From positions 1-64,000 of the IMG/VR virus record IMGVR_UViG_3300028833_000063: 64,000 nucleotides of DNA; one strand, 5' to 3'. The notes under the pieces are model-generated. The model searched no databases, was not told the DNA's origin, and worked only from the letters and a program-made list of their open reading frames with translations. Positions 4,965 through 5,978 of this stretch are shown here, in pieces. The translations under genes and the position numbers were made by a program. Source of the stretch: a virus. Taxonomy: Duplodnaviria > Heunggongvirae > Uroviricota > Caudoviricetes. Every line of letters begins with the position of its first letter. Position 1 is the first letter of the stretch.

Positions 4965-5978
4965 ATGACTTTAGATATTATTATTCCTTGTTTTTATCCT
5001 TCAGAAATTATTTATCCATGCTTAAATTCTATAAAAAATTAGACAGTCGTCAATGATATTACTGTTATTATGGTGAATGATTGTTCTACAAATACTGAAT
5101 GTGAGTATATGGATTTAAGAAATGAATTTTCTAAATATTTTAAAATAAAATATTTAAAAACAAGCCATAATAGTGGCCCCGGAGTAGCAAGGCAATTAGG
5201 TTTAGATAATGCCACTAGCGATTGGGTTATGTTTATAGATGATGATGATGAGTTGTATGATAATACTTCTGTTGAAAGGCTAATGAAGCAAATAAATTCA
5301 AATAATATAGTTTCTGTGAGTGGGCAAAGTATTCATGTAGATTTGGTTACTGGAGCGCAAATTACTCTAGACCCATGGATTCATCATCAAGGTAGTATTT
5401 ATAATCGCGCTATTTTAAAAGGGTATAATATTCGTTATGATCCAAGATTGTCATTTTTAGATGAAGATACTTGCTTTTCACATATGATATTATTATATAC
5501 TAGAAAGTATAAACAGATATAGCTGAAAGAACTAATATATAAGAAAAAATGTAATAATTAGAAAATTTGTTCTTTAACTTCAAATAATCTAGTAGAAAAA
5601 AAGATATTACATATGATAGGATTATATACAAATGTTTTAAATTATTATATTAATATAAATTGTGAAAAAGATTTTTATACAGAAGCGTATGTATCTATCG
5701 CTAATTTACTATTATTTTTATCTACTTTTCCTAAAATTCATTTTACTCAGCAACAGTGTTATAATCTGTTATCTTTTTTAGTTGAATTTAATAGTAGCGT
5801 TAATAAATATGACTTACCTCTATCTGAAGAAAGATGCGAAAGTTCTATAGATTTTCTTAAAAAGAGATCTTTTTTTGAAGGAACTAATTTTATTGTATCG
5901 TATGATAATGTATTACGATATAAACAAGAAAGTTTAATTTGGATAAAAAATATACTAGAAAAGGTGATCAACGAATGA
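4965..5978 (+). CDS. glycosyltransferase family 2, three in-frame TAG codons
   Basis: IIIPCFY...SIKN[TAG]TVVNDITVIMVNDCS and DDDDELYD (DXD) GT-A signatures; one frame stays open from 4965 to TGA at 5976-5978 except TAGs at 5040, 5520 and 5559; AGGAGG RBS; follows the tRNA island with no promoter of its own. Confidence 0.7.

What the first reader, a model, noticed from the sequence alone, without database searches (positions are those of the whole stretch)
4965..5978. TAG is not a stop in this genome and most likely encodes Gln
At least eleven genes here have in-frame TAG codons: 4965, 19983, 23108, 26066, 27384, 29311, 31950, 43927, 46661, 53523 and 63532. Recognisable protein-family sequence continues on both sides of each TAG. 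In the family-2 glycosyltransferase the first TAG sits in ...SIKN[TAG]TVVNDITVIMVNDCS. The family consensus at that point is LNQT...VDDGS, so the TAG aligns with a conserved Gln. Every gene I call ends in TAA or TGA. Every six-frame ORF in the supplied track that ends in TAG lies inside one of these genes. Replication genes such as the polymerase, helicase, primase and topoisomerase contain no TAG. Other genes are riddled with it, which suggests temporal or translational control through a suppressor tRNA.
Basis: partly seen in the sequence, partly recalled or inferred. Interest (0 to 1): 0.9.

Follow-up and report, generated by a model that had tools for sequence, protein, structure and literature searches.

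The report
Phage reads TAG as glutamine
This stretch of a large rumen-type phage genome uses the stop codon TAG as a glutamine codon in about a dozen genes while keeping it out of its early replication genes, which is a real but already well-described kind of phage genetic-code change (code 15).

Summary
All eleven genes named have in-frame TAG codons (43 in all) and end in TAA or TGA. One 969-codon gene has 23 TAG and no TAA or TGA.

TAG means Gln, and the evidence does not depend on database translations. In the glycosyltransferase, the TAG at 5040 sits in a column that is Q in 23 of 23 homologues. That column is CAA in one homologue whose DNA I checked and TAG in three. An invariant Gln that is CAA in the window is TAG in three homologues. 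In the 969-aa family, TAG+CAA+CAG per full-length gene stays at 47-60, and two homologues have no TAG at all. Substitution-profile likelihoods pick Gln in three independent gene sets.

No CUA tRNA lies in the window. Syntenic relatives carry one about 3.7 kb upstream of where the window starts.

Replication genes avoid TAG across the clade. Host-type promoters are followed first by tRNAs or TAG-free genes.

Two claims are overstated. One HNH gene ends at TAG where its homologues stop. The helicase has a TAG near its end.

The phenomenon is known (code 15 phages), so this is a new member of a known kind. A side lead: the clade's suppressor tRNAs carry an extra hairpin that looks like a tRNA-Gln anticodon loop.

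The parts
4965..5978 (+). Family-2 glycosyltransferase gene with in-frame TAG at 5040, 5520 and 5559; stop TGA.
   Evidence: Pfam PF00535 matches aa 5-133, spanning X26. In 25 homologues the TAG-5040 column is Q in 23 of 23. That column is CAA in P0017 and TAG in P0019, P0037 and P0039. The window's Q77 (CAA) column is TAG in three homologues.
19983..20711 (+). HNH/homing endonuclease gene with TAG at 20055 and 20265.
   Evidence: phrog_374 and phrog_559 span both TAGs. ORF structure.
23108..26017 (+). 969-aa gene of unknown function with 23 in-frame TAG (41% of its Gln-type codons); stop TAA.
   Evidence: It has 16 full-length homologues. TAG+CAA+CAG per full-length gene is 47-60 across the family. 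L016 and L022 have 0 TAG. dN/dS is 0.12-0.14 downstream of the first TAG.
26066..26512 (+). 148-aa gene with a hydrophobic stretch (phrog_37604); TAG at 26078, 26252 and 26267.
   Evidence: TAG 26267 is a sense-codon Q in L001. The other two TAGs are conserved as TAG in several relatives.
27384..27575 (+). 63-aa gene with TAG at 27423 and 27522.
   Evidence: A 63-aa orthologue is called in L001. TAG 27423 is Q in L003 and L021.
29311..29916 (+). ClpP-family protease gene with TAG at 29383.
   Evidence: Pfam PF00574 matches aa 19-195. The TAG column is a sense-codon Q in L001 (96% identical), L003, L006, L011 and L021, and TAG in L002 and L012.
31950..32336 (+). 128-aa gene with TAG at 32031.
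   Evidence: Orthologues have I/Y/Y/D at this variable position.
43927..44112 (+). 61-aa ORF with TAG at 43957 and 43993. This gene call is weakly supported.
   Evidence: Supported by ORF structure only.
46661..47422 (+). N6/N4 DNA methyltransferase gene with TAG at 46700.
   Evidence: Pfam PF01555 and phrog_67 (aa 8-257) match. The one orthologue found has Q at the TAG. In PDB relatives the position is variable.
53523..53717 (+). 64-aa ORF with TAG at 53547, 53598 and 53649. This gene call is weakly supported.
   Evidence: Supported by ORF structure only.
63532..64000 (+). Gene running off the window end, with TAG at 63745 and 63874.
   Evidence: It has 44 orthologues. The 63874 column is N 11, Q 8, D 7 and others. 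The 63745 column is R 31, K 7.
54496..56100 (+). DnaB-type helicase gene with a single TAG at 56077, eight codons before the TAA.
   Evidence: Relatives keep a tail of similar length. The TAG column is TAG/E/W/K/G. Stopping at the TAG would remove only 7 residues.
7714..8112 (+). HNH endonuclease gene whose natural end is the TAG at 8110. Read-through would add 31 residues, up to the TAA at 8203.
   Evidence: Homologues L105:15367-15876 and L124:6176-6637 end with TAA at the same aligned position. The DNA after the TAG is a conserved intergenic element that follows a tRNA in L117.
240..8616 (+). Array of 15 tRNA genes, none with anticodon CUA; tRNA-Gln(UUG) at 8545-8616.
   Evidence: ARAGORN and Rfam. 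With the covariance model of the clade's CUA tRNAs, the best window hit is the tRNA-Gln itself at 51 bits, against 73-99 bits for family members.
44186..63535 (+). Replication block: GyrB-like 44186-46051, GyrA-like 47472-49550, AAA_24 52763-53509, DnaB, RecJ 57497-59269 and Pol III alpha 59570-63535. It is free of TAG apart from 56077. The TAG-containing genes 46661 and 53523 are interspersed.
   Evidence: Pfam. Across 43-62 relatives the topoisomerase subunits have 0 TAG in 55,165 codons and Pol III alpha has 2 in 57,257.
23064..23093 (+). Hairpin plus T-run just upstream of the TAG-rich 969-aa gene. The next host-type promoter is at 26509, after the 148-aa gene.
   Evidence: The sequence is AGCCATTC-GAAA-GAATGGCT followed by TTTATTTT. 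Promoter list.

Best explanation
The window comes from a large phage, probably about 160-190 kb, of a clade common in rumen-type metagenomes. This phage uses genetic code 15: in a subset of its genes UAG is translated as glutamine.

Shown:
- TAG lies inside conserved, selected coding sequence.
- TAG interchanges with CAA and CAG in orthologues.

Inferred mechanism:
- Early after infection, host RNA polymerase transcribes from the many consensus sigma-70-type promoters.
- These promoters drive the tRNA array and the TAG-free replication and nucleotide-metabolism genes, which the host's standard-code machinery can translate.
- In syntenic relatives the array starts with a phage-encoded amber suppressor tRNA (anticodon CUA). 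Its acceptor end is of the Gln/Trp type, with a weak 1:72 pair, G2:C71 and G73.
- This tRNA is presumably charged with Gln by the host enzyme.
- As it accumulates, it competes with release factor 1, and TAG-containing genes can then be made full length. Chief among them is the 969-aa gene, with 23 TAG.
- TAG codons at or near gene ends (HNH 7714, DnaB) are harmless in either state.
For: TAG is a sense codon:
- One ORF has 23 TAG and no TAA or TGA.
- Domain and family matches span the TAGs.
- Homologues of the 969-aa gene are uninterrupted in the standard code (L016 with 943 codons, and L022).
- dN/dS after the first TAG is 0.12-0.14.

TAG means Gln:
- In the GT2 gene the TAG-5040 column is Q in 23 of 23 homologues. 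By DNA it is CAA in P0017 and TAG in three others.
- An invariant Q column that is CAA in the window is TAG in P0019, P0017 and P0039.
- The ClpP TAG is a sense-codon Q in five relatives.
- TAG+CAA+CAG per full-length gene is 47-60 across the 969-aa family.
- Among the window, L001 and L009, the codons opposite TAG are TAG 124, CAG 9, CAA 5, AAA 4, AGG 2, AAT 1 and CGC 1.
- An empirical substitution-profile likelihood ranks Gln first in every identity bin of the 969-aa family.
- It also ranks Gln first in 42 other genes, where Q is 33 of 104 sense partners, and in 31 genes across 62 further loci, where Q is 53 of 248. Ser is only 1.6-7% of partners.

Suppressor tRNA:
- L008 and L027, syntenic with the window's left end, have a CUA tRNA with compensatory changes.
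- 24 of 66 relatives' arrays have a CUA tRNA.
- 20 distinct long ones (85-93 nt) were aligned. Their structure is 89.8% paired against 63.7% in shuffles.
- The nearest non-member tRNAs under the covariance model are tRNA-Gln and tRNA-Trp.
- Amber-suppressor tRNA-Trp is known to be charged with Gln (PMC9976931).

Timing:
- There are 21 consensus promoters on the + strand, and the first downstream feature is a tRNA or a TAG-free gene in 20 of them.
- Replication genes avoid TAG clade-wide.

This matches the published model for recoded phages (10.1101/2021.08.26.457843; proteomic proof of TAG=Q in PMC9523058).
Against: - No CUA tRNA, release factor or Gln-tRNA synthetase gene was found in the 64 kb window.
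- The suppressor is seen only in relatives, and 42 of the 66 arrays examined show none within 10 kb either side.
- At several TAG positions the relatives show other residues: 32031 has I/Y/D, 27522 has R/I/V, and 63745 has R/K.
- The ClpP TAG aligns with a conserved Arg of cellular ClpP.
- The window holds no structural or lysis module, so enrichment of TAG in late genes cannot be tested here.
- The TAG-rich 969-aa gene has no known function. Its predicted structure is poor (pLDDT 57.7) and a PDB profile search found nothing.
- Timing, charging enzyme and suppression efficiency are all inferred. There are no expression or proteomic data.
Confidence: 0.9

Rival explanations
1. TAG is decoded as another amino acid (Ser, Leu, Tyr or Trp). 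The argument is that the clade's CUA tRNAs have a long variable region like class II tRNAs, and some have tRNA-Trp-like bodies.
For: The CUA tRNAs are 85-96 nt long with a 19-28 nt variable region. Rfam's tRNA model misses the one tested (L008), which weakly matches tRNA-Sec at 29 bits. Several are most similar to tRNA-Trp.
Against: Among sense partners of TAG, Ser is 1.6-7%, Trp 1-3.6% and Leu 1-7%, against Gln at 17-32%. The Gln profile wins the likelihood in all three data sets.

The discriminator is G73 in all 20 aligned sequences, not the A73 of bacterial Leu and Tyr. The 1:72 pair is always weak. TrpRS needs C35, and amber tRNA-Trp is charged with Gln (PMC9976931).

Invariant Gln columns of GT2 alternate between CAA and TAG.
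Confidence: 0.04
2. The TAG-containing genes are pseudogenes, assembly errors, or sets of separate small proteins, and TAG is an ordinary stop.
For: Under code 11 the genes break into fragments. No suppressor tRNA is present in the window.
Against: The same TAG positions recur in independent metagenome assemblies: 19 of the window's 23 are shared with L001. dN/dS after the first TAG is 0.12-0.14.

Some fragments between TAGs would be only 1-3 codons long. Only TAG interrupts these genes, never TAA or TGA. Standard-code homologues are uninterrupted.
Confidence: 0.01
3. TAG is read as pyrrolysine. ARAGORN labels the CUA tRNAs 'tRNA-Pyl'.
For: The ARAGORN label. Lys is a frequent partner of TAG. 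Rumen communities contain Pyl-using organisms (own knowledge).
Against: The label only reflects the anticodon. These tRNAs have long variable regions and canonical T-loops, whereas tRNA-Pyl has a very short variable loop (own knowledge).

No pyl genes appeared among the annotated proteins. The Gln profile beats the Lys profile in every data set. Invariant Gln columns alternate between CAA and TAG.
Confidence: 0.01
4. TAG is ambiguous by design. It acts as a stop early in infection and as Gln late, and some TAGs (HNH 7714, the DnaB tail, 43700) are working stop codons, not merely tolerated ones.
For: The HNH gene ends at TAG exactly where its homologues have TAA. The only TAG in a replication gene is eight codons from its end. 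Host-type promoters serve TAG-free genes.
Against: This refines the main explanation and is not a true alternative to it. The DnaB tail is kept at similar length in relatives that have a sense codon there. There are no expression data.
Confidence: 0.5

Closest known systems
Genetic code 15 (TAG to Gln) in uncultivated phages: crAss-like, Lak and the 'gemstone' clades (Ivanova et al. 2014, own knowledge; Borges et al., 10.1101/2021.08.26.457843; Peters et al., PMC9523058)
   Same: TAG occurs in frame in a subset of genes (about a fifth to a quarter of those here; the paper's clade means run from 26% to 71%). It reads as Gln. Relatives carry a phage CUA suppressor tRNA. Genes needed early are standard-code compatible. 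TAA and TGA serve as stops. The phage has a large genome with a big tRNA array and comes from gut or rumen habitats.
   Different: In this window the recoded genes are scattered among early, replication and nucleotide-metabolism genes, and half of all the TAGs sit in one 969-aa gene of unknown function. No structural or lysis module is in view. I found no release factor or aminoacyl-tRNA synthetase gene. I could not tell whether this clade equals one of the named clades.
E. coli amber suppressors supE (tRNA-Gln CUA) and su+7 (tRNA-Trp CUA, charged with Gln)
   Same: The anticodon is CUA. The acceptor end has a weak 1:72 pair, G2:C71 and G73, which is the Gln/Trp identity set listed in PMC9976931. 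Gln is inserted at UAG in competition with RF1.
   Different: The phage tRNAs carry a 19-28 nt variable region with an extra hairpin. They are encoded by a virus. They serve a genome in which TAG is used systematically as a sense codon.
Theta-ribozyme-associated suppressor tRNAs of recoded gut phages (PMC10879173)
   Same: These are phage suppressor tRNAs linked to code 15. In that paper isotype prediction gives mostly Gln, then Trp. Here too the nearest relatives of the CUA tRNAs are tRNA-Gln and tRNA-Trp.
   Different: Rfam reported no ribozyme next to the CUA tRNA of L008. That paper does not mention an enlarged variable arm.

Membership tests
Code 15 (TAG=Gln) recoded phage | In-frame TAG inside conserved protein-coding genes, with homology continuing on both sides. 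| tested here: met
   43 TAG in 11 genes, domain matches spanning the TAGs, and full-length homologues.
Code 15 (TAG=Gln) recoded phage | TAG positions correspond to Gln (CAA/CAG) in homologues. | tested here: met
   The check was done at codon level, to avoid the database's own TAG=Q translations. Evidence comes from the GT2 columns, ClpP, the 969-aa family and two further gene sets.
Code 15 (TAG=Gln) recoded phage | Phage-encoded suppressor tRNA with anticodon CUA. | tested here: inconclusive
   None is present in the window. It is present in syntenic relatives L008 and L027 about 3.7 kb upstream of the position matching the window start, and in 24 of 66 relatives' arrays. The window's own upstream sequence could not be retrieved.
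Code 15 (TAG=Gln) recoded phage | TAG is not used as a terminator; genes end in TAA or TGA. | tested here: inconclusive
   Nearly all genes end in TAA or TGA. However, HNH 7714-8112 ends at TAG at the homologous stop position. DnaB and 43700 have a TAG a few codons before TAA or TGA.
Code 15 (TAG=Gln) recoded phage | Early genes are standard-code compatible, and recoded codons are enriched in late (structural, lysis) genes. | tested here: inconclusive
   The first half is met. Replication genes are TAG-free clade-wide, and consensus promoters are followed by TAG-free genes. The second half is not testable, because the window holds no recognisable structural or lysis module.
Code 15 (TAG=Gln) recoded phage | Gln found at TAG positions in peptides. 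| not testable with these tools
   This needs proteomics. It has been done for crAss-like phages in PMC9523058.
Class II (Ser/Leu/Tyr) amber suppressor | Long variable arm, plus A73 (Leu, Tyr) or Ser-type identity, with the matching residue at TAG columns. | tested here: not met
   A long variable region is present. But G73 is invariant and 1:72 is weak. Ser, Leu, Tyr and Trp are rare opposite TAG.
Pyrrolysine decoding | tRNA-Pyl architecture, pyl genes, and Lys-like columns at TAG. | tested here: not met
   The tRNA shape differs. No pyl genes appeared in the annotated proteins. Gln beats Lys in all likelihood tests.

The most novel reading that the evidence does not exclude
The amber suppressor tRNAs of this phage clade are not plain tRNA-Gln(CUA). 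These tRNAs are seen in relatives, and by synteny one is expected just upstream of the window.

All 20 distinct long sequences aligned carry an enlarged variable region with a short hairpin. Two of its base pairs covary. Its 7-nt loop is CUCUGAA in 13 of 20, and CUUUGAA-like or similar in the rest. In other words it copies the anticodon loop of the phages' own tRNA-Gln (CU-YUG-A) and differs from the real anticodon loop CUCUAAA by one base.

The most novel reading is that this is a decoy Gln anticodon, or a duplicated anticodon arm. It would restore recognition by the Gln-charging machinery, or by another anticodon-reading factor, which the CUA anticodon loses at position 36. That would be a new way of fixing the identity of a suppressor tRNA.

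A related oddity occurs in one relative. There a tRNA-Gln(UUG) gene is split inside its anticodon by an 83-nt tRNA-shaped insert with anticodon CUA.
Probability: 0.2. Interest if true: 0.75.

Novelty: new member of a known kind. Interest (0 to 1): 0.35.

Why it matters
For annotation it matters directly. With the standard code at least eleven genes in this window are fragmented or lost, including a 969-aa protein, a glycosyltransferase, a ClpP-type protease and a DNA methyltransferase. The window must be called with code 15.

Biologically it adds a well-sampled clade to the known TAG-to-Gln phages: dozens of 160-190 kb genomes in rumen-type metagenomes. The separation between TAG-free genes behind host-type promoters and TAG-bearing genes is unusually clean. 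One gene family is loaded with about 20-30 TAG wherever the clade is recoded.

That makes the clade a convenient system for testing the idea that stop-codon recoding times gene expression. The unusual suppressor tRNAs of the clade may deserve a study of their own.

Tried and rejected
- **Close phage relatives.** A megablast of 24 kb against 50,697 GenBank phage records found no match.
- **The window's own contig.** An exact protein look-up and an exact 41-mer search in IMG/VR and in JGI metagenomes found only a relative (L008). The window's upstream sequence, and so its own suppressor tRNA, could not be read.
- **Protein-level tabulation.** Counting residues opposite TAG in database homologues gave Q in 155 of 161 cells. 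I rejected this as circular, because the database had translated those genes with TAG=Q. I replaced it with codon-level analyses.
- **PDB alignments for single TAG positions**. The ClpP TAG aligns to Arg, the methyltransferase position is variable, and GT2 is ambiguous (Q in TagF; D next to Q in 5tze). These are too few and too distant to decide anything.
- **GT2 paralogues in relatives' tRNA arrays.** At 21-33% identity they gave N/R/K/P at X26. These pairwise alignments in a gap-prone region are unreliable, and closer homologues superseded them.
- **An all-ORF orthologue comparison**. It was polluted by conserved off-frame ORFs, so I redid it on a non-overlapping gene set.
- **Function of the 969-aa protein.** Pfam and PHROGs found nothing. 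AlphaFold gave pLDDT 57.7 and pTM 0.32, so I ran no fold search. A PDB profile search found nothing below E=0.18.
- **Searching for the anticodon arm elsewhere.** An exact search for L008's CUA anticodon arm in IMG/VR returned only chance matches, L024 and L025, which hold no tRNA.
- **Covariance model R1.** Its D, anticodon and variable stems were mis-registered by 1-2 columns through my own error. I rebuilt it as R2, and the ranking did not change.
- **A T4-like late-promoter motif.** TATAAAT occurs upstream of some TAG genes, but there are too few sites in AT-rich DNA to claim a late promoter.
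Full report
**What is in the window.**

All recognisable genes lie on the + strand, and GC content is about 37%. The left 8.6 kb is an array of 15 tRNA genes interspersed with small genes, a group I intron and homing endonucleases.

The rest encodes nucleotide-metabolism, RNA-repair and replication functions:
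- RNA ligase, DNA ligase, RNase H, PhoH and a ClpP-type protease;
- GyrB- and GyrA-like topoisomerase subunits;
- DnaB, RecJ and Pol III alpha.

No GenBank phage is close at the DNA level. IMG/VR holds more than 60 related contigs of up to about 160-190 kb. One of them carries the 'cow-rumen-4' RNA motif.

Reading through TAG and stopping only at TAA or TGA gives ORFs at all eleven listed starts. They contain 43 in-frame TAG in total. The extreme case is 23108-26017, with 969 codons, 23 TAG and no TAA or TGA.

TAG is about one fifth of the stop triplets in every frame of the + strand. That pattern is therefore out of reach of chance, at roughly 0.2^23.

Family matches run across the TAGs in four genes:
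- GT2, aa 5-133;
- ClpP, aa 19-195;
- phrog_67 methyltransferase, aa 8-257;
- the HNH PHROGs.

The 969-aa ORF has 16 full-length homologues.

**A circularity trap.**

At the protein level, close homologues show Q at 155 of 161 cells opposite the window's TAGs. But the look-up tool reported that the genes do not translate to the database proteins under table 11. Their DNA has 25 and 19 in-frame TAG, which the database had rendered as Q.

So relatives have already been called with code 15, and their Q's prove nothing by themselves. All further tests used codons.

**TAG is translated, and it means Gln.**

*The 969-aa family.* I collected DNA for this family from 21 loci.
- The sum TAG+CAA+CAG stays at 47-60 per full-length gene, while TAG alone ranges from 0 to 30.
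- Two homologues, L016 and L022, have no TAG and 60 and 51 CAA/CAG. L016 is a 943-codon ORF open in the standard code.
- Opposite the TAG columns of the others, L016 most often has Q: 22 of 159 columns, against a background of 6.4%.

*Substitution-profile likelihood.* From the same alignments I built, for each amino acid, the distribution of partners in other sequences. I then asked which profile best predicts the sense-codon partners of TAG.
- Gln wins in every identity bin.
- The share of Q among TAG's partners tracks the self-conservation of sense-coded Gln (0.20 vs 0.20, 0.10 vs 0.12, 0.12 vs 0.10).
- The share of Ser among TAG's partners (0.05-0.08) is far from Ser's self-conservation (0.2-0.4).

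*Closest relatives.* Among the window and its two closest relatives, the codons opposite TAG are TAG 124, CAG 9, CAA 5, AAA 4, AGG 2, AAT 1 and CGC 1. dN/dS downstream of the first TAG is 0.12-0.14.

*Two independent gene sets.* The same likelihood test gives Gln first in both:
- 42 other genes of the 13-36 kb region, with Q as 33 of 104 partners;
- 31 genes in 62 IMG/VR loci around DnaB, with Q as 53 of 248 partners.

*ClpP.* The TAG at 29383 is a sense-coded Gln in five relatives, one of them 96% identical, and TAG in two.

**The gene named in the finding.**

PDB relatives of the glycosyltransferase are too distant to settle the first TAG: it aligns with Q in TagF and with D next to a Q in 5tze. 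Distant paralogues in relatives were misleading.

A database search found 25 closer homologues at 28-47% identity. In their alignment the column of TAG 5040 is Q in 23 of 23 sequences, as part of a conserved Q-T motif.

I fetched DNA for four of them. That column is CAA in P0017 and TAG in P0019, P0037 and P0039.

Conversely, an invariant Gln column that is CAA in the window (Q77, position 5193) is TAG in P0019, P0017 and P0039. The window's Q264 (CAG) is TAG in P0017.

The other two TAGs, at aa 186 and 199, fall in variable columns.

- *HNH gene 7714-8112.* Two homologues end with TAA at exactly the aligned position of its TAG. The DNA after the TAG is a conserved intergenic element that elsewhere follows a tRNA. 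So TAG still marks a natural gene end here. Suppression would add 31 residues.
- *DnaB helicase.* It has one TAG eight codons before its TAA. Relatives keep a tail of similar length, with E, K, G, W or TAG in that column. So the TAG may be read through, but stopping there would cost only seven residues.
- *TAGs that are not in genes.* The TAGs at 33666 and 11811, and those inside ORFs that overlap tRNA genes, lie upstream of the likely starts or in spurious ORFs.

**Which genes carry TAG.**

Of about 75 credible genes, roughly 15 contain TAG. Half of all the TAGs are in the 969-aa gene, where TAG is 41% of the Gln-type codons, against about 8% elsewhere.

Across 43-62 relatives the pattern is gene-specific:
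- the two topoisomerase subunits have 0 TAG in 55,165 codons;
- Pol III alpha has 2 in 57,257;
- the gene at 56094 has 1 in 22,514.

Meanwhile the 969-aa family carries about 16-30 TAG per gene wherever the phage is recoded.

The + strand has 21 perfect TTGAC[AT]-N16-18-TATAAT promoters, against one on the - strand. The first feature after them is a tRNA (3 cases) or a TAG-free gene (17 cases). The one exception is a doubtful call.

The TAG-rich pair 23108-26512 has no such promoter. It is preceded by a hairpin and T-run, and it is followed by the next consensus promoter.

This fits the published model in which early genes use the host's code and recoded genes wait for the code switch (10.1101/2021.08.26.457843). 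Here that is an inference from sequence only. The 969-aa protein has no recognisable function.

**The suppressor tRNA.**

The window has no CUA tRNA. A covariance model of the clade's CUA tRNAs scores nothing in the window above its tRNA-Gln(UUG) at 51 bits, against 73-99 bits for members.

The window starts inside the tRNA array. The relative L008 is 77-100% identical in the aligned patches (most 77-95%) and syntenic with window 77-8544. It has a CUA tRNA about 3.7 kb upstream of the point matching the window start, and L027 has one as well. The two differ by compensatory changes at 1:72 and in the anticodon stem.

I fetched 66 arrays through the conserved protein encoded at window 1291-1767. 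Of these, 24 have a CUA tRNA. The 20 distinct long ones that I aligned fold as a cloverleaf with strong covariation: 89.8% of cells are paired against 63.7% in shuffles, and 22 of 24 pairs change on both sides. Their features are:
- an invariant anticodon loop CUCUAAA;
- an invariant G73;
- a 1:72 pair that is always weak (A-U 8, U-A 6, A.C 5, G.U 1);
- G2:C71 or G.U.

That matches three of the four acceptor-end elements listed for bacterial tRNA-Gln and tRNA-Trp (G73, the 1:72 pair and G2:C71). The fourth, the 3:70 pair, is C-G in 15 and G-C in 5 of the 20, whereas the listed element is G3-C70. Amber tRNA-Trp is known to accept Gln (PMC9976931).

Consistently, the best non-member hits of the model among about 1,000 array tRNAs are tRNA-Gln and tRNA-Trp.

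**An unexpected feature of these tRNAs (in relatives, not in the window).**

Their variable region is 19-28 nt and holds a short hairpin.
- Pair 53:61 is C-G 16, G-C 2 and U-A 2.
- Pair 52:62 is C-G 5 and G-C 5.

Its loop is CUCUGAA in 13 of 20 and CUUUGAA(C), UCUGA, GCUGA or AUUGAC in the rest, with UGA invariant.

This is the anticodon loop of the phages' own tRNA-Gln, CU-YUG-AC/AA. It is also one base away from the suppressor's real anticodon loop.

I found no description of this in the papers searched. Whether it helps Gln charging, is a relic of a duplication, or serves something else is open.

In one relative (L092) a tRNA-Gln(UUG) gene is split between U35 and G36 by an 83-nt tRNA-shaped insert with anticodon CUA. 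This was the only such case among 1,038 tRNAs.

**Verdict.**

The finding is real and its interpretation is right in substance: TAG is a Gln codon in this phage. It is an instance of genetic code 15. That code has been known in phages for a decade, has been validated by proteomics (PMC9523058), and is already applied by the database to this clade. So the novelty is that of a new member of a known kind, and the interest is moderate.

The parts worth a specialist's attention are:
- the clean early/TAG-free versus TAG-bearing split;
- the single TAG-laden gene family;
- the residual use of TAG at a gene end;
- the odd suppressor tRNAs of the clade.

Noticed in passing
L141:17235-17327, L097:5359-5449, L008:637-725 and 17 other loci (alignment A4); not in the window: The clade's CUA suppressor tRNAs have a 19-28 nt variable region with a covarying hairpin. 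Its loop (CUCUGAA in 13 of 20; UGA invariant) copies the anticodon loop of tRNA-Gln and differs from the real anticodon loop CUCUAAA by one base. G73 is invariant and the 1:72 pair is always weak.
   Followed up: partly
L092:15462-15635: A tRNA-Gln(UUG) gene, otherwise 95% identical to window 8545-8616, is interrupted between U35 and G36 of its anticodon by an 83-nt tRNA-shaped insert with anticodon CUA. RNase P/Z-type excision would leave ligatable halves, and these phages encode RNA ligase. This was the only such case among 1,038 tRNAs scanned.
   Followed up: partly
window 1769-2014 and 2230-2850: A group I intron (Rfam RF00028, 95 bits) lies at the 3' end of the highly conserved ORF 1204-1827 and is followed by an HNH endonuclease gene. 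I did not work out the exon structure of the interrupted gene.
   Followed up: no
window 77-236: A 160-nt stretch, consisting of a consensus promoter plus a GC-rich segment (ccaagggagaaaagctacttccggaagttacgg...), is 95% identical to L008:4327-4486 in otherwise diverged DNA. It may be a small structured RNA ahead of tRNA-Thr. I did not analyse it.
   Followed up: no
window 82-59546 (21 sites, e.g. 14586, 18593, 26509, 44129, 47419, 59518): There are 21 perfect TTGAC[AT]-N16-18-TATAAT promoters with AT-rich spacers of similar sequence, all on the + strand (only one match on the - strand). They are typically 22-33 nt upstream of a start codon.
   Followed up: partly
window 7714-8112: An HNH endonuclease gene inside the tRNA array ends at TAG where its homologues end at TAA, so a TAG serves as a gene end in a TAG-recoding genome.
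   Followed up: yes
window 51700-52539: A LAGLIDADG homing-endonuclease gene sits just upstream of the AAA_24 gene. That gene's ORF (52577-53509) extends upstream of its first ATG (52763), and its Pfam match starts at profile position 65 of 195. This suggests an intron or intein-type interruption of the AAA_24 gene.
   Followed up: no
L029:6450-6800: In a more distant relative, a tRNA-Leu-like gene appears to be split by about 270 nt in the anticodon region (5' half near 6450, 3' half ending ...CACCGGCACCA near 6795). It looks like an intron-containing tRNA. This comes from reading the sequence only.
   Followed up: no
L108:11583-11673, L103:15972-16062: Two tRNA-like sequences have the same variable-arm hairpin (ATCCCTCTGACGGAGG and ATGCCTCTGAAGCAGG) but an aberrant anticodon region. 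ARAGORN does not call them. They may be degenerate or variant members of the suppressor family.
   Followed up: no
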